From a virus (taxonomy: Duplodnaviria > Heunggongvirae > Uroviricota > Caudoviricetes), in IMG/VR virus record IMGVR_UViG_2778261226_000006: a stretch of 38,474 nt of DNA; one strand, written 5' to 3'. The position numbers and the translations under genes were made by a program. The notes under the pieces were generated by a model, which worked only from the letters and a program-made list of their open reading frames with translations, was not told where the DNA came from and ran no database searches. Positions 1 through 37,540 of this stretch are shown here, in pieces (the stretch's first letter is position 1; every line of letters begins with the position of its first letter).

Positions 1-1053
1 TTACGGGGTAATGCCAACCGCTGCCGCCACTTTGTCGCCACTTGGCAGCGTTGCCAGAGGATTGAAACGGAGCGCCGTTTCCAGATGATCTGGTGCCAGA
101 TGTGCGTAACGCATAGTCATTTTTATATCGTGGTGTCCGAGAATTTTTTGTAAGGCGAGAATGTTTCCACCCGACATCATGAAGTGCGCCGCAAATGTAT
201 GGCGCAGAACGTGTGTGAGTTGACCGCGAGGGAGCACGATAGACGTTTTTTCCATCACGGATAAAAATTGAAAATAGCAGTCTGTAAAGAAATTGAACCC
301 ATCAAGCGCCATGATCTCTTCGTAAAGCTCTTTACTGATAGGGATGCTTCTGTTTTTCTTCCCCTTCGTTCTGACAAAGGTAATTCGGTATTTGGTCACC
401 TGTGAGCGGGTAAGATTTACGGCTTCACGCCAGCGTGCGCCTGTGCTTAAGCATATCTTAACTACCAGTGCCAGAATCGGGTCCTGACGTTTACAATCAG
501 CCAGCAATTCAACAATCTGCTCATGGGTAAGCCATGCCATCTCTTTTTCTGCGATGGTGAATTTTCGCATGTTCTCCAGTGGGTTCGGATACGACCATTC
601 GCCCAGGCGGGATAGTTCGCTAAAAACACTACTTAGATAGCTTTGCTCCAGGTTAATGGTGACCGGGCTTGCTCCTTTCTTCCATTTCTCGCTGAAGTAG
701 ATCTCACCTGTCAGGCGTTTATCTCGATAGTGGGCAAACATTTTAGAGGTGAGATCGGTTGCTAGGGGATTGCCCAGAGCGTCAACCATCAACAGCAATT
801 TATCATAGACATGCTGCCCAGCGGTTAGAGATTTACCATGTAGTTTGAACCATAGCTCAACCACGTCTTTCAGTGTTCGACGATCCACTGATTCTCCCAG
901 CCAGGGCTTTGCTTCGGTTTCTTCCATCGTATGGCGCTCAAAAGCCAGAGCTTCGCCTTTGGTGGCGAATTGTTTACGCACACGACGCCCACTACGTCCG
1001 GCGGGGTAACATTCGCAAAGCCATTTTCCTGTGGTGAGTTTTCGTACTGCCAT
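1..1053 (-). CDS. int: Tyrosine integrase (P2/186-family phage integrase)
   Basis: Track ORF 1..1131 (-); preferred start is ATG at 1051-1053 (Met27 of track ORF) preceded by GGAGGG SD; C-terminal HxxR...Y signature (HVLRHTFAAH ... RYAHL); stop codon occupies window positions 1-3. Confidence 0.85.
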   Translation of the reverse strand: MAVRKLTTGKWLCECYPAGRSGRRVRKQFATKGEALAFERHTMEETEAKPWLGESVDRRTLKDVVELWFKLHGKSLTAGQHVYDKLLLMVDALGNPLATDLTSKMFAHYRDKRLTGEIYFSEKWKKGASPVTINLEQSYLSSVFSELSRLGEWSYPNPLENMRKFTIAEKEMAWLTHEQIVELLADCKRQDPILALVVKICLSTGARWREAVNLTRSQVTKYRITFVRTKGKKNRSIPISKELYEEIMALDGFNFFTDCYFQFLSVMEKTSIVLPRGQLTHVLRHTFAAHFMMSGGNILALQKILGHHDIKMTMRYAHLAPDHLETALRFNPLATLPSGDKVAAAVGITP

Positions 1054-3946: not shown

Positions 3947-4797
3947 GCACCATCCTGAAATGGGCAGGAAATAAAACCGCCATAATGTCCGAACTGAAAA
4001 AGCATCTTCCTGCTGGCCCGCGACTGGTTGAACCTTTCGCGGGTTCCTGTGCAGTGATGATGGAGACGGATTATCCCAGCTATCTTGTTGCGGATATTAA
4101 TCCTGATTTAATCAACCTCTATAAAAAGGTTGCTGCTGATTGTGAGGCGTTTATATCTCGTGCCAGAGCTTTATTTGAGGAAGCAAACAGGGAGGTGGCT
4201 TATTACAACATAAGGCAGGAGTTTAATTACTCCACTGAAATTACTGATTTCATGAAAGCGGTATATTTCCTGTATCTCAATCGTCACGGTTACCGTGGTT
4301 TATGTCGCTATAACAAGAGCAGGCATTTCAACATTCCCTACGGTAATTATAAAAATCCGTATTTCCCTGAAAAAGAAATTCGCGCATTTGCAGAGAAAGC
4401 CCAGCGGGCAACGTTTATCTGCGCCAGCTTTGATGAAACGCTGGCGATGTTGAAGGTGGGGGATGTGGTGTATTGCGATCCGCCTTATGACGGTACGTTT
4501 TCCGGCTATCACACTGATGGTTTCACTGAAGATGATCAGTATCACCTGGCATCCATTCTTGAACATCGGTCATCAGAAGGACATCCGGTCATTGTTTCTA
4601 ACAGTAACACGTCTTTGACCCGGTCCCTTTATCGTAATTTCACTCACCACTACATCAGGGCGAAACGCAGCATCGGCGTTGCAGCGGGGGAGGGAAAATT
4701 TGCAACAGAGATGATTGCCACTAAATCTGCTAATTGGTTTAGTGCCGATTTTAGTAGGGGACGTGACTCTACTGTTATTTTCGGGGTGCAAGTGTGA
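3943..4797 (+). CDS. dam: DNA adenine (N6) methyltransferase, Dam family
   Basis: ATGA overlap with upstream stop (3943-3946); SAM-binding motif FAGSCAV near N-terminus and catalytic DPPY motif; track ORF 3883..4797 has a likely spurious 5' extension. Confidence 0.85.
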
Positions 4798-5624
4798 AAG
4801 AAATGCACCACGGAATTCATCATTTCCATGGGACGCCTGTCTGGGGAAGTGCTGGCGACGTTCATCGTATTGCGGTGAGCGGAGCTGGCGCTTTCGTCTC
4901 CTATGTACGACCAGATCAGATTGCGGCGTCCATTCAGCACGCTCAGGTCGTCGGCATTGATAACGGCGCATTTTCTGCATGGGTGCGTGGGCTAAAAATT
5001 AACTGGAGTGATTTTTATAAATGGCTCCTGAACTATTACCACCATCCTAAGGTCGCTTTTTTTGTCATTCCTGATGTTGTGGACGGAGGTGAACGTGACA
5101 ATGATGCCCTGATAAACGAAGTTCCGAAAATGTTCTACGGGAAGGCAACTCCCGTCTGGCATCTGCACGAGTCAATCGATCGGCTTATCGAGCTATGTCG
5201 TGAATGGCCTCGTGTCTGCTTTGGATCGTCTGGTGAATATGCGGCTATCAGAACTGCGCACTGGCATCGTCGTATGCAGGACGCTTTTGAAGCAATTTAT
5301 TGCCGACACAATTTCAAAACAGCTGTTCATGGTTTGCGCATGCTTGACGGTCGTGTGTTGGGAAATTACCCACTGGCGACTGCCGACAGTACAAATCTTG
5401 CCTGCAATGTCCCCAAATTTAATAGCAAATATCCTGAGCTGACGCGGGCTATTCAGGAGGCTGAGTATTCGCGCAATCTGACGGAAAAGGAGCTGAAAGC
5501 TGTCATTCTGAAAAACCGTTGCGCAATTTTAAAAGGTGCAATTGAAGCTGTTCGCCCACCTTCAGTTTCTGATTGGCTGTCGAATGGTTTGCAGCCTTCA
5601 CAGCTCGAACTGGAGATTGCGTAA
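4794..5624 (+). CDS. Hypothetical protein co-operonic with dam; possible TGT-fold (DpdA-like) enzyme, unverified
   Basis: 276-aa ORF overlapping dam stop (GTGA) and A start (TAATG); His-rich N-terminus; segment [12 protein letters not shown] resembles the D-S/N-G-G/A-F catalytic loop of tRNA-guanine transglycosylase-fold proteins; no C-terminal Zn CxCxxC; function assignment is a by-eye hypothesis. Confidence 0.5.
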
Positions 5625-8149: not shown

Positions 8150-8338
8150 ATGCAGGACTATTTTTTGGAGTCTTTGAAGCTCCAGCGCATTGATTTTTTT
8201 CTTAAGCTTGTAGCGGCTAGTGAGTGTAGTGATGAAGAGAAGGGGCTGGCCCTGCAGTGGGTTTCTGAATTGACTGATGAACTCATGGCAAAAATCAGAA
8301 GCCACGAATACAACCGCTCAATGGATGTCATCAGCTGA
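8150..8338 (+). CDS. Small hypothetical protein (SOS-controlled operon, first gene)
   Basis: ATG 8150 preceded by strong SD AGGAGGAAAG; 62 aa; track ORF 8048..8338 has a 5' extension through the promoter region. Confidence 0.45.
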   Translation: MQDYFLESLKLQRIDFFLKLVAASECSDEEKGLALQWVSELTDELMAKIRSHEYNRSMDVIS

Positions 8339-8348
8339 GGTGACTTTT

Positions 8349-8582
8349 ATGCGCATTGAAATAATGATCGATAAAGAGCAGAAGATTAGCCAGTCTACCC
8401 TGGACGCTCTGGAGTCCGAGCTTTACCGCAACCTGCAACCCATCTATCCCAAGACCGCTATCCGCATCCGTAAAGGGTCGGCAAACGGCGTTGAGCTGAG
8501 TGGCTTAAAGCTTGATGAAGACAAAAAGCGGGTGATGGAAATTATGCAACAGGTTTGGGAAGACGACAGCTGGCTGCACTAA
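8349..8582 (+). CDS. DinI-like protein (DinI / Tum C-terminal family)
   Basis: 77 aa starting MRIEIMIDK and ending ...QQVWEDDSWLH, matching the DinI pattern MRIEV ... W..D.W as I recall it; SD GAGGTG; downstream of LexA box. Confidence 0.7.
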   Translation: MRIEIMIDKEQKISQSTLDALESELYRNLQPIYPKTAIRIRKGSANGVELSGLKLDEDKKRVMEIMQQVWEDDSWLH

Positions 8583-8964: not shown

Positions 8965-9576
8965 ATGGATTTAGTCTTTAAAGTTCTGGCTTCGTTGGGT
9001 GGGGTGTCTTTTGTTGCATCTGGCATATTTGTTTGGATCGGGAAAGTTTATTTAGAAAGATATAAGTCGCGGCTAAACAAAGATATTGCTGAATTTCAAT
9101 CACAACTGAGTGCAACTAATGAAAGAATAAAGGCTAAGTTAGACAATTCTGTTTATGTAACGAAAGCGTATTTTGATAAGGAGTTATCAGCATATAGTCT
9201 CATTTGGAATTCGATGTTTGAAACCAGAGAAAGCGTGCTTAAGCTGAGGCCTGCGCTGGATCATGTTGACCCCAACGAACCATTTGAAGAGAGAAAATTT
9301 AGAAGGTTGAAAGTTTTTTTTGATGCATTTAACACTTTTGTTACAAGTGTTGAATCTAACAAACCGTTCATCTCACCAGAGGTTTATATAATCTTGGACC
9401 GTTTCCGGAAGGAATGCCTTTCAGAGTCAATATCGTTTAAGCATAGCGATCCAGAATTTGACGGGCAAAATTATTGGAAAGAGGCGGAGTTGAACCATAC
9501 AACCATCACCAAGCTTTTTGATGAGACGTGTGATGCAATTCGAAACAGGATGCACACATTAACTGTGGTTACGTAG
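8965..9576 (+). CDS. Membrane-anchored hypothetical protein in the tin/old position (candidate exclusion/defence gene)
   Basis: 203 aa; N-terminal hydrophobic helix VLASLGGVSFVASGIFVWIG followed by charged helical domain; AT-rich relative to phage core; own promoter and SD GGTGGGGG; located between replication gene and candidate cos. Confidence 0.6.
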   Translation: MDLVFKVLASLGGVSFVASGIFVWIGKVYLERYKSRLNKDIAEFQSQLSATNERIKAKLDNSVYVTKAYFDKELSAYSLIWNSMFETRESVLKLRPALDHVDPNEPFEERKFRRLKVFFDAFNTFVTSVESNKPFISPEVYIILDRFRKECLSESISFKHSDPEFDGQNYWKEAELNHTTITKLFDETCDAIRNRMHTLTVVT

Positions 9577-9825: not shown

Positions 9826-10350
9826 ATGACTGTTTTACACCTTGTAGCAGACCACCTTGTTAAGCAGGCTAATACAACCCATAGAAAGGGGGAGGTGCAC
9901 GCAATATTAGCAGATGCATATGGTCGTTCTGCTTTTAATCGGTATTATTATGCTTGTTTTCTTAACGTCCGTGAGTTTGTTTCAACTATTGATTCCAATT
10001 GGGGCAAGGTCAAGCATGCAGATGTTCCAAAATTATTACGTGATAGTGTAAGTAGAAAGATAGAAGTTGAGCTCCAAAAATCAGAAAAAATTGGCGATAT
10101 AACTTTATGTGAATATAAATCTAAAAAGAGCTTAATACGTACTTCACTGAACAATATGGCTTCAACTATGGCATTGGCATATACAATTAGGGGAGTTGTT
10201 GATTATGAGCCGGAAATTGAGATGATATTCTGTAATGGCAGTTTTTCGATTAATAAAACATCAGTGGCTTCGGCTAAGGGGTGGCTACAAACCATTAATT
10301 CAGAAAGATCGAAGGTTACCAGAATTATGAAGGAGATTGGCTTTGTCTAA
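9826..10350 (+). CDS. Hypothetical protein, upstream gene of pair preceding the retron (candidate accessory/effector)
   Basis: 174-aa ORF from ATG 9826; overlaps the next ORF; no Walker, HNH, TM or other recognisable motif by eye. Confidence 0.6.
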   Translation: MTVLHLVADHLVKQANTTHRKGEVHAILADAYGRSAFNRYYYACFLNVREFVSTIDSNWGKVKHADVPKLLRDSVSRKIEVELQKSEKIGDITLCEYKSKKSLIRTSLNNMASTMALAYTIRGVVDYEPEIEMIFCNGSFSINKTSVASAKGWLQTINSERSKVTRIMKEIGFV

Positions 10351-11080
10351 CCAGAAAATATTATCAGAATTGTTGGTAAAATTCCCGTTTATAAAAGTTA
10401 AAGATGTAACAGATTTTATGGATACAATTCTGTTGATCATCCCAATTAACAAAATAGTACCATTGTCTGCTTCGAATAGTATAACAAAACGCCAGATATC
10501 TTTATTGGTGAAACGAATAACAGAAAAGCTAAATGTAAGAGTGTTGATTAGTTACTCACCATTTTCAGATAAAGACAATATTGAAGCGGCTTTAGTGGCG
10601 TTAGCGAGAAGTAATTTTAAAAAAGGGAAGATATCTGATTTGAATTTATCTTTCTTTGATTCGCAAAACGCAGTGCTTTATGTCTTTTGTAAAAACCTTA
10701 CATTATCAGAACGCGAGAAGTGGGAGTCGTTAGTTGTAGGGATATTAAACGGTTTTAATATAAAAGTGACTTCATTTGTATATGAGGCTAAAAATAATCC
10801 TGAACCTACAATGATGGTTATTTTAAGAGCGGCAAAAAAATGTCAGCCCTTTGATCTTCCAAGATTGTTCAGTCAACTTGATAATGGCGATTATCATATT
10901 GAATCACTTGATTGGCTGAATGGGAAGCTAGACAACTTACGTAAGAAAGGATTTTTATTAAGAAGCCATGACGGAACTTATAGAATGACATTGTCAGGGT
11001 TAGAAATAGTTCCAGTGACTAAATCTAGGCAAAGTTCTGATATAGAGAGGGTCCTTTATCTTGCACGCAAACATCTATAG
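10337..11080 (+). CDS. Hypothetical protein, second gene of pair preceding the retron (candidate accessory/effector)
   Basis: 247 aa as tracked from TTG 10337; likely start TTG 10343 with AAGGAG SD (10330-10335), implying translational coupling to the upstream ORF; alternating hydrophobic/charged N-terminal region, C-terminal segment KKGFLLRSHDGTYRMTLSGLEIV; family unknown. Confidence 0.6.
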   Translation: MALSNQKILSELLVKFPFIKVKDVTDFMDTILLIIPINKIVPLSASNSITKRQISLLVKRITEKLNVRVLISYSPFSDKDNIEAALVALARSNFKKGKISDLNLSFFDSQNAVLYVFCKNLTLSEREKWESLVVGILNGFNIKVTSFVYEAKNNPEPTMMVILRAAKKCQPFDLPRLFSQLDNGDYHIESLDWLNGKLDNLRKKGFLLRSHDGTYRMTLSGLEIVPVTKSRQSSDIERVLYLARKHL

Positions 11081-11089
11081 TGGTATATT
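11061..11089 (+). promoter_or_regulatory. Candidate sigma70 promoter for retron msr-msd-ret transcript
   Basis: -35 TTGCAC (11061-11066), 17-bp spacer, -10 TATATT (11084-11089); predicted start about 11096, coinciding with the a1 repeat. Confidence 0.45.
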
Positions 11090-11095
11090 CGCGTT

Positions 11096-11268
11096 GGTAG
11101 TGGCGTTCACGAGAGTATGCATCATGCTCATTTGTGAAGGTCGCGGACAGAATGTGCGCCTGCGAATCAGCAGTCGTTCCTTCGAAACGTCTGCTGATTC
11201 GCAGGCGTCATCAACGAAAGTTTTCATCAGCTTTGCTTAAGGATTGACCTTATGAAAACGCCACTACC
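11096..11268 (+). ncRNA. Candidate retron non-coding RNA (msr-msd)
   Basis: 12-nt perfect inverted repeat GGTAGTGGCGTT (11096-11107) / AACGCCACTACC (11257-11268) as a1/a2; GAGAG immediately after a1 (candidate branching G region); 17-bp perfect stem 11157-11173 / 11191-11207 as msd hairpin; directly upstream of and overlapping the start of the retron-type RT. Confidence 0.5.
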
Positions 11269-12229
11269 CTTATTTTTCACATTCACTGATGCCGAACAGT
11301 TTCTTAAGGCGTTGAGCACACCGCTGAGAGATAGATATTCTGCGGAACTTATTCGACTACAAGGCCTCAGGCTTCCCCCATTAGTTTCTTGGAGTATCTT
11401 GTCTGTTGCCATTGGCGTAAGCCCACAATTTATTACTTCGTTAATTAAGAATAAGTCAAAATACTATCGTGTTTTTTCTATTTCCAAAGGAAGAGGAAAG
11501 AAAAAAAGAATTATTGAAGCACCCAAGGTTAGTATAAAAATCATTCAGTCTTGGGTCGCTCATCATTTAAGCATTAATCATAGTCTTGGCATAAGTGAAA
11601 ATGCATATGCTTTTATCCCAGGTAAGAATGGGATATATGAAGCTGCAAGTAAACATTGTGGTGCAAAATGGATCCTGTCTATTGATTTAAGAGATTTTTT
11701 CCATACGATCACTTCAGATATAGTGATTTCAACATTAGTTGAAATCGGATATAGAGCCGATCAGGCTGCTAAATTGAGTGAATTACTTACCTTGAATCAG
11801 AGACTTCCGCAAGGTGCGCCAAGTAGCCCTGTTATCTCAAATTTAGTATTTAGGTCAACTGACTTAAAGATTAATGAGTTGATTTCTAATACGGGTATTA
11901 AATATACTAGATATGCTGATGATTTGACCTTCTCCGGTGATGATGAAACATTTGATATCGAGGAACTTAAAGATAATGTTGTAGAGTTGTTACTATCTGA
12001 TAATTGGGTTGTGGCTGAGGAAAAACTCAGAATAGCTAGGATTCCTAATAGATTAAAAGTACATGGTTTTCTAGTTCATGAAAATAAACCTAGATTGACT
12101 AAAGGCTATCGAAATAAAATTAGAGCATATAAACATTTATTGAGGACTGGGAAAATAGTTGAGAAGGATTTTGATAAAATTAAAGGGCATGTTAACTATA
12201 GTGAATATATTGATAGATTGAATGAGTAA
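11252..12229 (+). CDS. ret: Retron-type reverse transcriptase
   Basis: 325 aa; RT motifs LSIDLRDFFHTIT, LPQGAPSSPVISNLVF and YTRYADDLTFSG (YADD catalytic box), plus RLKVHGFLV in the position of the retron VTG motif; N-terminal Y..F.I.K..G..R.I..P pattern; close by-eye similarity to Ec86-type retron RT motifs. Confidence 0.9.
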   Translation: MKTPLPLFFTFTDAEQFLKALSTPLRDRYSAELIRLQGLRLPPLVSWSILSVAIGVSPQFITSLIKNKSKYYRVFSISKGRGKKKRIIEAPKVSIKIIQSWVAHHLSINHSLGISENAYAFIPGKNGIYEAASKHCGAKWILSIDLRDFFHTITSDIVISTLVEIGYRADQAAKLSELLTLNQRLPQGAPSSPVISNLVFRSTDLKINELISNTGIKYTRYADDLTFSGDDETFDIEELKDNVVELLLSDNWVVAEEKLRIARIPNRLKVHGFLVHENKPRLTKGYRNKIRAYKHLLRTGKIVEKDFDKIKGHVNYSEYIDRLNE

Positions 12230-12248: not shown

Positions 12249-13280
12249 TTAATTTAATGTGTATATTCCAAAGGATATGATTTTATCTCCTATCCAGTTA
12301 TTTAACTCTTCTAGTCTTCTCTGTAATGGTATTAACTCATTCCTCACAAAAACAAGGCTTGCCTTCTCCACATCCCCAAAACCCCCAACATTATTAGGCA
12401 TTATCCCCATCATTTGTGGGGGTACACGATGCGCCGCCATCATGTCGTCCCGGCTTACGTTCTTGATGTTCAGAAACTCATCCTTCGCCGCGACTTCTGA
12501 TAACGGGATAATCTGAAGTCCGTCCTTTTTGCCGTTAGGAGAGTACATAAACAGATTGCGGAAGTTACCTGGTCCTTTGGCGCTTTTCATTGCATTGCGG
12601 AGGTTGTTCACATCCTCCTGGTTTTGTGCGGCGTCGGTCATGTACATGATGAAGCCTGCATGACTGCCGTTGATGTAATACTTCCGGCGGAACAGCGTGG
12701 CGGACTCGTTGAGCAGGGCTGACGGAATGGCAGAAAGATAACCGGGCAGGCCGTAGATCTCCTGGTTGATGTCCGGTTCCATCAGATGAAAAATGCTGCC
12801 TTTCGTGAACTGATACGGCTGGGTTGTCATACCGTATTGCACAAACCAGTAGGTATCCAGGTCTAACCCGCGTCGGGTGTATTTTGCCAGAGCAGGCTCA
12901 AGGGCGATAACTTCACCAAACCGGTTCGTGCGTTTCTCCAGGTAGGCGTTACCAAATACCAGATAGTCCTGCACAAAACGTGAAAAAGCCTGTTGGCTGA
13001 GCAGCGGGTGAGGGATGTAGGTGCTGGTCAGAATGTTGCATTTCACCGCAATCGGTGAGCTGTGATGCACGGCGGCGCGGAAGGTTCGCGCCAGTCCGTC
13101 AAAGCTGACGGGAGGCTCATACCAGCGATCTGTCTGTACGCATTCCACATAGTCCAGCAGTTCGCGGCGGTCAAGTACTGGAATGGGATCACCGAAGCTG
13201 AAAGCCTCAGCCGTTGGAGCGTTGCCTGGTTTTGTGTTGTGATCAACCTTTACCAGTTTGATGTTTTTATGTTTGCTCAT
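12249..13280 (-). CDS. Q: Portal protein (P2 gpQ-like)
   Basis: 343 aa, essentially the size of P2 Q; position before terminase large subunit on the same strand; ATGA overlap with upstream gene. Confidence 0.85.
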   Translation of the reverse strand: MSKHKNIKLVKVDHNTKPGNAPTAEAFSFGDPIPVLDRRELLDYVECVQTDRWYEPPVSFDGLARTFRAAVHHSSPIAVKCNILTSTYIPHPLLSQQAFSRFVQDYLVFGNAYLEKRTNRFGEVIALEPALAKYTRRGLDLDTYWFVQYGMTTQPYQFTKGSIFHLMEPDINQEIYGLPGYLSAIPSALLNESATLFRRKYYINGSHAGFIMYMTDAAQNQEDVNNLRNAMKSAKGPGNFRNLFMYSPNGKKDGLQIIPLSEVAAKDEFLNIKNVSRDDMMAAHRVPPQMMGIMPNNVGGFGDVEKASLVFVRNELIPLQRRLEELNNWIGDKIISFGIYTLN

Positions 13281-34825: not shown

Positions 34826-35044
34826 ATGATGATTTGCCCACTGTGTGGAAGTGCCGCCCATACTCGCAGCAGTTTTCAGGTATCTTCATTGACCAAAGAG
34901 CGTTACAACCAGTGCCAGAACATTAACTGCAGCCATACTTTTGTTACCCATGAAACTTTTGTTCGTTCGATTGCAACGCCAAAAGAGTCAAATCCGGTTC
35001 AGCCGCATCCAATGAAATCAGGACAGGTGGCGCTCTCTCTTTGA
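34826..35044 (+). CDS. ogr: Ogr-type zinc-finger late transcription activator
   Basis: Starts MMICPLCGSAAH with C-x2-C ... C-x4-C zinc-finger arrangement (CPLC ... CQNINC), matching the Ogr/Delta pattern; track ORF 34793 start is a likely extension (ATG at 34826 or 34829). Confidence 0.8.
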   Translation: MMICPLCGSAAHTRSSFQVSSLTKERYNQCQNINCSHTFVTHETFVRSIATPKESNPVQPHPMKSGQVALSL

Positions 35045-35112
35045 CTCTGCCGCCATTTTTTCACCATTGCTAAAAACAGTGATTCTAAAAATCATTGTTT
35101 TCGAATAAGTGC

Positions 35113-35631
35113 CTAGCATCCGATAAGGTCGTTTGCTTCAAACTTTGGCAAATGATACTCATTTGCCAAATGTTCGTTATCTTTGTTATTTTTTAAATAT
35201 TTGTATTTTAATGTATTTTTATCTTCATTGTATGATAATAAAGCTTCCCCGATAGGAACATCACGCCACCCTATTTGAATGCAAAGAAGGATAGTGACCT
35301 GCCCTTTATGGTTTAGCTTACCCGAGAATGTAAAGGTGCATTTCTCTTCATCAAGGCTTGTTGATGAACAGTTAGTGATAGTCCCTGCCAAATTGCCGAC
35401 GACATCTGATGACTCAATTTTTATGCTTATTATATTCTCATTATGGTTGCGAATATCACCAACATTGTTCCAGTTTTTTGAGACTAGAAGCTCAATAATT
35501 CTTTTTTTCTTAAGGCGTTTTACTTCCTTTGCCTGTGGTGAGTATAAGAGGTATGCGGGTATGCCTGCTACAATTGCCAGCACAGCTAATATAATGGTAA
35601 CCATCTGAAGTCCTTGTTCTTCTGCCGCCAT
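35113..35631 (-). CDS. AT-rich membrane-anchored hypothetical protein between ogr and the host junction (candidate moron)
   Basis: 172 aa; N-terminal hydrophobic helix MVTIILAVLAIVAGIPAYLL; Lys/Asn-rich; much lower GC than the phage core; start codon lies inside a 14-bp direct repeat. Confidence 0.55.
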   Translation of the reverse strand: MAAEEQGLQMVTIILAVLAIVAGIPAYLLYSPQAKEVKRLKKKRIIELLVSKNWNNVGDIRNHNENIISIKIESSDVVGNLAGTITNCSSTSLDEEKCTFTFSGKLNHKGQVTILLCIQIGWRDVPIGEALLSYNEDKNTLKYKYLKNNKDNEHLANEYHLPKFEANDLIGC

Positions 35632-35698
35632 TTTGCCGCCAAAGATAAGTAAAGTAGTTTCTAACTTATTGATTATGGAATGGAAGAATAGCAGGCAA

Positions 35699-35742
35699 CA
35701 AAAAACCCATCAACCTTGAACCGAAATGGCGGGGTTGATGGG
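35699..35742 (-). terminator. Rho-independent terminator downstream of ybjL
   Basis: CCCATCAACC (35706-35715) / GGTTGATGGG (35733-35742) 10-bp stem; on the minus strand followed by a U-tract (plus-strand A-run 35700-35705). Confidence 0.6.
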
Positions 35743-35854
35743 CTCCACAAAATGGGGACATCAAAGAAAAGCAGTGGCACTAATTAAGACTGATGCCCTG
35801 CGGAAAAGTTCTGCGGTTGTGCAAAAAAATTTCATTTTCAGGGCAACTTCAGTT

Positions 35855-37540
35855 TTATCCTAATCCTGGCCATACCATGACGATGATTGTCCCTGCCAGC
35901 GTCAGCAGGACGTTGGCGATTGCGTAGGTGCCCGCATAGCCCAGCGCAGGGATGTTACTGCGAGCTGTATCACTGATGATCTCCATTGCCGGCGCGCAGG
36001 TGCGTGCGCCCATCATTGCGCCGAACAACAGTGCGCGGTTCATTCGCAATACATAAGCACCGAACAAGAAACAGATAACCACGGGCACAAGACTGACAAT
36101 TAATCCGGCAATCAACATCTGACCGCCAATCGCGCCCAGGCCGTTATTAATACCGCTACCGGCGCTCAGACCAACGCCTGCCATAAACACCATCAAGCCG
36201 AACTCTTTCACCATGCTTAATGCACCTTGCGGAATGTAACCGAAGGTCGGGTGGTTAGCACGCATAAAGCCCAGCATAATTCCGGCGAATAACAACCCGG
36301 CAGCGTTCCCCATGCCGAAACTGAATGTGCTGAACTGGAAGGTGATCATCCCGATCATCAGCCCAATAACAAAGAAGGCGCAAAATGCCAGCAGGTCAGT
36401 GACCTGGCTGTGAATCGAGATAAAGCCGATGCGATCGGCGATGGTTTTTACGCGACGGGCATCACCGCTGACTTGTAAAACGTCACCTTTGTTAAGCACG
36501 ACGTTGTCATCTATCGGCATCTCAATCTGGCTACGAATGACGCGGTTAAGGAAGCAACCGTGATCGGTCAACTTCAGTTGTGCGAGACGTTTACCTACAG
36601 CGTTATGGTTTTTAACGACCACTTCTTCAGTGACGATACGCATGTCGAGAAGGTCACGATCGAAAACTTCTTTACCGTTACGGAAGCTGGGATCGAGTCG
36701 GGCATGGGCGTCGGGATAGCCTACCAACGCTATTTCATCGCCCATTTGTAGCACGGCATCACCGTCTGGATTTGCCAGAATCCCGTTACGTCGAATACGT
36801 TCAATGTAGCAGCCGGTTTGTCGATAAATACCCAGTTCACGCAGATTTTTGCCGTCGGTCCAGGCCACCAGCTCCGGGCCGACGCGATAGGCGCGGATCA
36901 CCGGTAAATAAACCTTACGGTTGGCATCAGTGTCCAGGCCACGTTCGCGGGCGATTTGCTGGGCGCTGGTCTGTAAGTCCTGATGCTGCAATTTCGGCAA
37001 GTAACGCGCACCAACAATCAAACTCACCAGACCGATTAAATAGGTTAAGGCATACCCGAGGCTCAGATTATCCAGTGCCAGTGAGAGCTGCCTGCTTTCC
37101 ATGCCGAAATGACGCAGTGTATCGCCAGCACCGACCAGAACCGGTGTCGACGTCATAGAGCCTGCTAACATACCGGCCGTCAGGCCAATATCCCAGCCAA
37201 ACAGCTTACCTAACCCTAAGGCGATCACCAGCGCACTGCCAACCATCACCAGTGCTAACATTAGGTAATTTTTCCCATCGCGAAAAAAAATGGAAAAAAA
37301 GTTCGGTCCGGCTTCGACCCCGACGCAGAAAATAAACAGCATAAAGCCAAGATTAAGCGCATCGGTGTTAATGCTGAAATGTTGTTGGCCTAATAACAGC
37401 GATACGACTAAAACGCCAATGGAATTACCCAGTTGGATCGAACCAAGTCGTAACTTTCCGAGACATAGCCCAAGCGCGAGGACCACAAATAATAACAGAA
37501 TGTAATTCCCATTTAACAATTCGGCGACGTTTATATTCAC
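35855..37540 (-). CDS. ybjL: Putative transporter YbjL (host gene)
   Basis: 561 aa; polytopic membrane protein with central soluble domains; sequence recognised as E. coli YbjL from memory. Confidence 0.85.

What the first reader, a model, noticed from the sequence alone, without database searches (positions are those of the whole stretch)
35632..35854. Prophage-host junction next to ybjL; attR not identifiable without the left junction
The phage sequence ends between the moron ORF (start at 35631) and the ybjL terminator hairpin (35699-35742). Host genes ybjL-ybjM-grxA follow in the K-12 order. My unverified recollection is that classical retron-carrying elements of E. coli were mapped to this general chromosomal region. 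The att core is probably within 35632-35700 but cannot be defined from this window alone.
Basis: partly seen in the sequence, partly recalled or inferred. Interest (0 to 1): 0.4.

Follow-up and report, generated by a model that had tools for sequence, protein, structure and literature searches.

The report
Prophage junction inside rybB small-RNA gene
This is the right-hand end (attR) of a P2/186-like prophage sitting in a well-known E. coli insertion site, the last 14 bases of the rybB small-RNA gene, so it is a real but ordinary, already published kind of junction.

Summary
The junction is real. Phage-specific sequence ends at 35691/35696. From 35697 rightwards the window is base-for-base identical to prophage-free E. 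coli IAI1.

The att core can be defined by comparison. The minimal core is AACAAAAAACCCAT (35697-35710). It extends to a 19-bp repeat, CAGGCAACAAAAAACCCAT (35692-35710), in hosts whose attB carries CAGGC.

The "ybjL terminator hairpin" is the terminator of the sigma-E small RNA RybB (Rfam RF00110, 105 bits, 35697-35775, minus strand). The core is the last 14 nt of rybB, so the gene is rebuilt intact at attR.

The phage arm shows 186-type attP anatomy:
- two tandem arm-type sites at 35623-35641;
- an IHF-consensus site at 35662-35674;
- a matching tandem pair inside the int 3' end at 22-40.

The 172-aa ORF is phage-side cargo. It occurs in 3 of 5426 complete E. coli genomes, is absent from empty sites, and is flanked by a duplicated P arm.

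About 20% of complete E. coli genomes carry a P2-like prophage here. The site is published as "rybB ncRNA" (Rybb*W/B/Cr) and as the PhiECO1 site. The retron recollection holds: the E. coli B retron-Ec86 prophage sits in this site, and this window carries a type IX retron.

Low interest; already known.

The parts
22..40 (+). P' arm-type Int-binding repeats (TGCCGCCActt TGTCGCCActt), inside the 3' end of int. They belong to attL/attP, at the far end of the prophage.
   Evidence: Pattern TGYCGCCA gives 14 hits against 4.1 expected. Tandem pairs at 11-bp spacing occur only at 22-40 and 35623-35641. They match the 186-type arm consensus tgccGCCActt reported in PMC3448106.
34826..35044 (+). ogr/Delta late-gene activator, the last conserved phage gene before att
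   Evidence: Pfam Ogr_Delta, E = 6.7e-22. Annotated as ogr in relatives.
35046..35102 (+). Distal, truncated copy of the attP P arm (one good arm-type site at 35048-35055), left behind by the cargo insertion
   Evidence: Aligns with the ogr-to-core spacer of phage contig KP12. Direct repeat D1, 35046-35080 / 35621-35655.
35113..35631 (-). 172-aa ORFan cargo gene (37% GC; hydrophobic stretch near the N-terminus, read by eye) inserted between the two P-arm copies. Its ATG is built from the arm-type site TGCCGCCAT.
   Evidence: No Pfam, PADLOC or PHROGs hit. One cluster of 18 sequences in 5.8 billion proteins. None in representatives of 185,579 species. Present in 3 of 5426 E. coli genomes.
35621..35691 (+). 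Proximal, complete P arm of attR: tandem arm-type sites 35623-35630 and 35634-35641; IHF-consensus site AATCAATAAGTTA at 35662-35674 (minus strand)
   Evidence: The arm-to-core distance (74 bp) matches that of intact attP in KP12 (73 bp).
35692..35710 (+). att core. The 19-bp repeat is CAGGCAACAAAAAACCCAT. The minimal core, which must contain the crossover, is AACAAAAAACCCAT (35697-35710).
   Evidence: attL of Combat2C1 carries the same 19-mer. attL of 23CRST001, VG12A2 and ATCC 8739 has host TAGAT plus the 14-mer, while their attR has CAGGC plus the 14-mer. Empty sites are IAI1 (TAGAT type) and Nissle (CAGGC type).
35697..35778 (-). rybB small-RNA gene, intact. The terminator stem is 35706-35715 / 35733-35742, and the U-tract is the att core.
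   Evidence: Rfam RF00110, 105.3 bits (gathering 40), model 1-79/79 at 35697-35775. Fold. The 5' end at 35778 is inferred from the known RybB 5' sequence GCCACUGC (own knowledge).
35785..35811 (-). Candidate sigma-E promoter of rybB (GAACTT, 16 nt, TCTTA, 6 nt, +1)
   Evidence: Read directly from the sequence against the sigma-E consensus recalled from the literature. Not tested with a tool.
35855..37540 (-). ybjL (aspartate:alanine antiporter), the first host protein gene

Best explanation
Region 35621-35778 is attR of a P2-like prophage with a 186-type lysis-lysogeny switch. The prophage belongs to the published PhiECO1 / 'Rybb*' group and integrated by tyrosine-integrase recombination into the 3' end of the host small-RNA gene rybB, between rcdA (ybjK) and ybjL.

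Shown here:
- Phage and host DNA share a 14-bp core, AACAAAAAACCCAT. Its reverse complement is the last 14 nt of RybB: the end of the terminator stem plus the U-tract.
- Because both partners carry this core, rybB is rebuilt unchanged at attR.
- At attL the other core copy is joined to a small phage hairpin (ACCCGTTTACATAAATGGGT followed by TTTTTTGTT). This lies downstream of int and looks like its terminator.

Inferred:
- Strand exchange occurs within the 14 bp. In three lysogens the 5 bp to its left differ between attL (host TAGAT) and attR (phage CAGGC).
- Int is positioned by tandem arm-type sites on both arms (35623-35641 and 22-40). An IHF-type bend at 35662-35674 lies between arm and core, as in phage 186 and P2.
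- The 172-aa ORFan was inserted into the ogr-attP spacer with duplication of the P arm. The proximal copy keeps the normal arm-to-core geometry, so attR is probably still usable for excision.
For: Empty site versus window: identity starts at 35697. 5419 of 5426 genomes match from 35692-35697 rightwards.

attL in genomes whose int end is 99-100% identical to the window or whose ogr-ybjL end is 99.5% identical: the same core lies 75-93 bp beyond the int stop, next to rcdA.

Intact attP (ogr-core-int contiguous) occurs in phage contig KP12 and in IMG/VR contig L014. L014 shares 27 bp with the B2-type attB of Nissle.

RybB covariance-model hit, full length, 105 bits. Terminator fold -25 kcal/mol. 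Phage hairpin fold.

Integrase domains Int_N and Phage_integrase. Arm-type repeats enriched, and tandem only at the two prophage ends. IHF consensus.

Literature: 'rybB ncRNA' is listed as the insertion site of the P2-like prophages Rybb*W, Rybb*B and Rybb*Cr (PMC3032704). The PhiECO2 coordinates 3023202-3058101 in ATCC 8739 (PMC3448106) fall exactly on the first base of the 14-bp core at each end. GenBank KY271398 annotates GCAGGCAACAAAAAACCCAT as attL of Klebsiella phage 4LV2017.
Against: The window itself lacks attL, so the repeat is shown only in near-identical lysogens. No complete genome in the collection is identical to the window over its whole length: the left end matches Combat2C1 and 23CRST001 at 100%, and the right end matches VG12A2 at 99.5%.

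No excised or virion form with this window's variant P arm was found.

The proximal P arm is only about 72% identical to the canonical one, so its competence for excision is unproven.

The arm-site, IHF, crossover and int-terminator roles are inferred from sequence, not measured.
Confidence: 0.93

Rival explanations
1. The junction lies immediately after ogr (about 35045-35110), and the 172-aa ORF with its flanks is host DNA.
For: The ORF has a lower GC content (37%) than both phage (51%) and host (49%). A copy of the P arm does sit right after ogr.
Against: Unoccupied sites (IAI1, Nissle) go straight from the rcdA stop to the core with no such ORF. The ORF is in only 3 of 5426 genomes, always inside the prophage. 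The complete P arm and core lie to its right.
Confidence: 0.01
2. The hairpin is only the ybjL terminator, and the att core is an anonymous intergenic sequence within 35632-35700.
For: No other terminator-like structure lies between the ybjL stop (35855) and the hairpin. ybjL transcripts may therefore also end there.
Against: Full-length RybB match at 35697-35775, 65 bits above the gathering threshold. The shared core runs to 35710, not 35700.
Confidence: 0.03
3. The junction is a fossil. The cargo insertion and the diverged proximal P arm have disabled attR, so the prophage is locked in.
For: The proximal P arm is only about 72% identical to the canonical arm. No free attP with this arm was found in IMG/VR. 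The variant is rare, in 3 genomes.
Against: Both arm-type sites match the TGYCGCCA core of the arm-site consensus, as do the P' sites. The arm-to-core spacing (74 bp against 73 bp) and the IHF consensus are kept. int, cI and the structural genes are full-length ORFs.
Confidence: 0.15
4. The functional core is the longer 19-27-bp identity (ATAAATTTCAGGCAACAAAAAACCCAT), and exchange can occur left of the 14-mer.
For: The canonical attP (IMG/VR L014) and the B2-type attB (Nissle) share 27 bp. Hsu et al. reported 26-bp repeats for the Ec67 element (via PMC7826664). Combat2C1 shows a 19-bp repeat.
Against: In VG12A2, 23CRST001 and ATCC 8739, attL keeps host TAGAT and attR keeps phage CAGGC. The exchange in those events was therefore to the right of these bases.
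Confidence: 0.1

Closest known systems
P2-like prophages at the 'rybB ncRNA' site: Rybb*W, Rybb*B, Rybb*Cr (Archer et al. 2011, PMC3032704); PhiECO1/2/3 and PhiSEN1 (Nilsson et al. 2011, PMC3448106)
   Same: Same chromosomal site (rcdA-rybB-ybjL) and the same 14-bp core. The int-cI-cII module is 99% identical to that of ATCC 8739. The switch and the arm repeats are 186-type.
   Different: This copy has an ORFan gene with a duplicated P arm between ogr and the core, and a type IX retron in place of Ec86 or no retron.
Retron-carrying 186-related prophages (retron Ec86 in E. coli B; retron Ec67 element)
   Same: The Ec86 prophage of REL606 lies in the same site. The retron occupies the same intra-phage slot, next to the portal gene. 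The prophage carries a Dam methylase gene, as described for the Ec67 element.
   Different: The retron here is type IX (HEPN, HTH, RT), not II-A (Ec86) or I-C (Ec67). I could not read Hsu 1990 to compare the 26-bp repeat base by base.
P2 at cyaR, 186 at tRNA-Ile, Fels-2/SopEPhi at ssrA
   Same: The logic is the same: the core duplicates the 3' end of a small structured RNA gene, so the gene survives integration (PMC3032704 Table 2; PMC3448106).
   Different: The target gene and core sequence differ. The core here is short (14 bp); much longer common cores (50 and 110 nt) are reported for the tRNA-integrating relatives PhiESP and PhiKPN (PMC3448106).
Klebsiella phage 4LV2017 (KY271398), genus Elveevirus
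   Same: Its annotated attL GCAGGCAACAAAAAACCCAT is identical to window 35691-35710, and its int end is 95% identical.
   Different: It has a Klebsiella host and no ORFan between ogr and attR.

Membership tests
rybB-site attachment system of P2-like prophages (PhiECO1 / Rybb* group) | One copy of the core at the same position in unoccupied chromosomes | tested here: met
   IAI1 and Nissle empty sites
rybB-site attachment system of P2-like prophages (PhiECO1 / Rybb* group) | Core repeated at the int end of the prophage (attL) | tested here: inconclusive
   Met in Combat2C1, 23CRST001, VG12A2 and ATCC 8739. The window stops at the int stop codon, so its own attL cannot be seen.
rybB-site attachment system of P2-like prophages (PhiECO1 / Rybb* group) | Contiguous attP (ogr-core-int) in non-integrated phage DNA | tested here: met
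   KP12 contig and IMG/VR L014. Not found for this window's variant P arm.
rybB-site attachment system of P2-like prophages (PhiECO1 / Rybb* group) | Tyrosine integrase next to att, and 186-type arm repeats (tgccGCCActt) on both arms | tested here: met
   Pfam Int_N and Phage_integrase. Tandem TGYCGCCA pairs only at 22-40 and 35623-35641. Consensus from PMC3448106.
rybB-site attachment system of P2-like prophages (PhiECO1 / Rybb* group) | Int-dependent integration and excision at this core | not testable with these tools
   Needs induction and junction PCR, or in vitro recombination.
RybB sRNA (Rfam RF00110) | Full-length covariance-model match above the gathering score, located between rcdA/ybjK and ybjL | tested here: met
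   105.3 bits against 40, model 1-79/79. Synteny.
RybB sRNA (Rfam RF00110) | Sigma-E-dependent promoter | tested here: inconclusive
   GAACTT-N16-TCTTA read at 35785-35811 against a consensus recalled from memory. No tool test.
Retron-carrying 186-related prophages | Retron RT and effector genes in the slot beside the portal gene of a prophage at this chromosomal site | tested here: met
   RT_IX, HTH_IX and HEPN_IX at 9826-12229, next to the portal gene at 12249-13280. REL606 comparison.

The most novel reading that the evidence does not exclude
The ORFan (35631 to 35113) lies directly downstream of rybB on the same strand, and only in the integrated state. Its start codon is embedded in an Int arm-type site. 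It could therefore be a lysogenic-conversion gene expressed by read-through from the sigma-E-driven rybB (or ybjL) transcript, and occluded when Int binds. That would couple a prophage cargo gene to host envelope stress. More modestly, the ogr-attP spacer may be a previously unlisted cargo slot of P2-like phages, created by P-arm duplication.
Probability: 0.08. Interest if true: 0.4.

Novelty: already known. Interest (0 to 1): 0.12.

Why it matters
It matters mainly for correct annotation. The prophage boundary is at 35697-35710, the hairpin belongs to the envelope-stress small RNA RybB, and rybB survives integration.

The site is occupied in about one in five complete E. coli genomes. It also hosts the classical retron-Ec86 prophage, so the window's type IX retron sits in a known retron-carrying prophage lineage.

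Nothing here changes current understanding. The duplicated P arm around an ORFan is a small curiosity about how cargo enters attP regions.

Tried and rejected
- ORFan function: Pfam, PADLOC and PHROGs gave no hit.
- ORFan homologues: a search of 5.8 billion proteins gave one near-identical E. coli cluster. The genome-contig scan gave no relative. Its origin stays unknown.
- Free attP with the window's own P arm: an exact search of IMG/VR found nothing. A shorter pattern found attL junctions and canonical attP only.
- Hsu et al. 1990 (PMID 1701261, PMC55184) is not held. The 26-bp repeat and the 19-min map position could not be compared base by base. The repeat is cited second-hand, and the 19-min figure is my own recollection.
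- The same scan found no sigma-70 promoter on the minus strand upstream of the ORFan. By eye there is only a weak TTGCCT-N15-CATAAT.
- I considered that the 19-mer is the true core. I rejected it as the minimal core because three lysogens differ in the first 5 bp between attL and attR.

Full report
**What is in the window.** The window is almost entirely a P2/186-like prophage. On the left it begins exactly at the stop codon of a tyrosine integrase gene (1-1053/1131, minus strand; Pfam Int_N and Phage_integrase). A 186-type cI repressor, cII, fil, a Dam methylase and the A replication gene follow. On the right lie the tape-measure, U and D genes and ogr (34826-35044; Pfam Ogr_Delta). Next comes a 172-aa ORF on the minus strand (35113-35631), then ybjL, ybjM and grxA. 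The finding concerns 35632-35854, the stretch between that ORF and ybjL.

**Checking the observation.** I aligned the region with the unoccupied rcdA-ybjL interval of E. coli IAI1. The two are identical from 35697 to beyond 35870 and unrelated to the left of 35697. In a search of 5426 complete E. coli genomes, 5419 match the host side, with the match starting at 35692-35697. Only three contain the 172-aa ORF (named).

**Defining the core.** The window lacks attL, so I used genomes that carry near-identical prophages.
- Combat2C1 and 23CRST001 are 100% identical to the first 2400 bases of the window. VG12A2 is 99.5% identical to the right end, including the ORF.
- In all of these, int is followed within about 75-93 bp by the same sequence seen at 35697-35710, and then by the rcdA stop codon.
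- Combat2C1 shares 19 bp, CAGGCAACAAAAAACCCAT, which is window 35692-35710.
- In 23CRST001, VG12A2 and ATCC 8739, attL reads TAGAT+AACAAAAAACCCAT while attR reads CAGGC+AACAAAAAACCCAT.
- Unoccupied sites come in both flavours: TAGAT in IAI1 and CAGGC in Nissle.
- The minimal core, which must contain the strand exchange, is therefore the 14-mer at 35697-35710. It is unique in the window, with 0.03 matches expected by chance.
- Non-integrated attP, with ogr, core and int contiguous, exists in phage contig KP12 and in IMG/VR contig L014. The canonical attP in L014 shares 27 bp with the Nissle-type attB. This is in line with the 26-bp direct repeats reported for the retron-Ec67 element (Hsu 1990, cited in PMC7826664).

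**What the hairpin is.** An Rfam scan gives a single hit in the whole window: RybB (RF00110), full length, 105.3 bits against a gathering score of 40, at 35697-35775 on the minus strand.
- The hairpin is the RybB terminator (fold -25 kcal/mol).
- The reverse complement of the att core, AUGGGUUUUUUGUU, is the last 14 nt of the RNA. The prophage is therefore inserted in the 3' end of a small-RNA gene, and the gene is rebuilt unchanged at attR.
- Upstream, at 35785-35811 on the minus strand, I read GAACTT-N16-TCTTA. This fits the sigma-E promoter known for rybB. That rests on direct reading and my own knowledge, not on a tool.
- No other terminator lies between the ybjL stop and this hairpin.

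**Anatomy of the phage arm.**
- The octamer TGYCGCCA occurs 14 times in the window against 4.1 expected. Tandem pairs at 11-bp spacing occur only at 35623-35641 and at 22-40, inside the int 3' end, in the same orientation. They match the 186-type arm-site consensus tgccGCCActt of Nilsson et al. (PMC3448106).
- An exact IHF consensus (AATCAATAAGTTA) lies at 35662-35674 between arm and core. Two one-mismatch copies lie in the P' arm.
- On the attL side, the core is followed by a small phage hairpin that uses the same T-tract, downstream of int. I infer that it terminates int.
- All of these roles are inferred from sequence.

**The ORFan and the duplicated P arm.**
- The ogr-to-core spacer of canonical phages aligns twice in the window. 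The first alignment is right after ogr (35046-35102, truncated). The second is at 35621-35710 (complete, about 72% identical).
- The 519-bp, 37%-GC ORF lies between the two copies, and its ATG is made from the arm-type site.
- The proximal copy keeps the normal arm-to-core distance: 74 bp against 73 bp in KP12.
- The protein has no family match. It has one near-identical cluster of 18 sequences in 5.8 billion proteins and no relative in representatives of 185,579 species.
- It is rare phage cargo of unknown function.

**Comparison with what is known.**
- The site is published. Archer et al. list 'rybB ncRNA' as the insertion site of the P2-like prophages Rybb*W, Rybb*B and Rybb*Cr, and note that Rybb*B carries retron Ec86 (PMC3032704).
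- Nilsson et al. define a shared 'PhiECO1' integration site for prophages of E. coli HS, ATCC 8739 and CFT073 and of S. Typhi CT18. Their ATCC 8739 coordinates, 3023202-3058101, fall exactly on the first base of the 14-bp core at both ends.
- GenBank KY271398 annotates the same 20-mer as attL of Klebsiella phage 4LV2017.
- The attL/attP-type junction also occurs in Raoultella, Klebsiella, Citrobacter, Enterobacter, Leclercia and other genera.
- About 1119 of 5420 matching E. coli genomes have D-ogr joined to rybB-ybjL, so the site is occupied in roughly one genome in five.
- The retron recollection is borne out. REL606 has its retron-bearing P2-like prophage between rcdA and ybjL. The window itself carries a type IX retron (HEPN_IX, HTH_IX, RT_IX) at 9826-12229, beside the portal gene.

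**Verdict.** The feature is an instance of an already described attachment site. The only unusual details are the duplicated P arm and the ORFan directly downstream of rybB on the same strand. These allow a speculative read-through model, which I rate as unlikely.

Noticed in passing
window 9826-12229: Type IX retron genes: HEPN_IX (9826-10350), HTH_IX (10337-11080) and RT_IX (11252-12229; Pfam RVT_1). They lie between a DinI-like gene (8277-8582) and the portal gene (12249-13280, minus strand). This is the same slot that holds retron Ec86 in the REL606 prophage at the same chromosomal site. The msr/msd RNA was not looked for, and Rfam gave no hit there.
   Followed up: partly
window 35046-35102 and 35621-35710: The attP P arm is duplicated around the 172-aa ORFan. 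The ORFan start codon is built from the Int arm-type site TGCCGCCAT.
   Followed up: yes
window 35144-35170: Perfect 12-bp palindrome (TTTGGCAAATGA tac TCATTTGCCAAA) inside the 3' end of the ORFan coding region. Its role is unknown.
   Followed up: no
window 8965-9576: A 203-aa ORF upstream of the retron genes with no Pfam or PADLOC match.
   Followed up: no
window 4794-5624: A 276-aa ORF between the Dam methylase gene and the A replication gene. In the REL606 prophage, dam is followed directly by A, so this looks like another variable cargo slot. Combat2C1 annotates it as hypothetical.
   Followed up: no
L010 20692-21024 (E. coli B REL606): An extra hypothetical gene sits between rcdA and int in the REL606 prophage. 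Cargo can therefore also sit on the int side of the att site.
   Followed up: no
L016 and L017 (IMG/VR contigs): The same core plus P' arm is preceded by unrelated left-hand sequences. These are either other cargo in the P arm or attL in other hosts.
   Followed up: no
window 1-3: The window begins exactly at the int stop codon, so attL (about 75-93 bp further left in relatives) is just outside it.
   Followed up: yes
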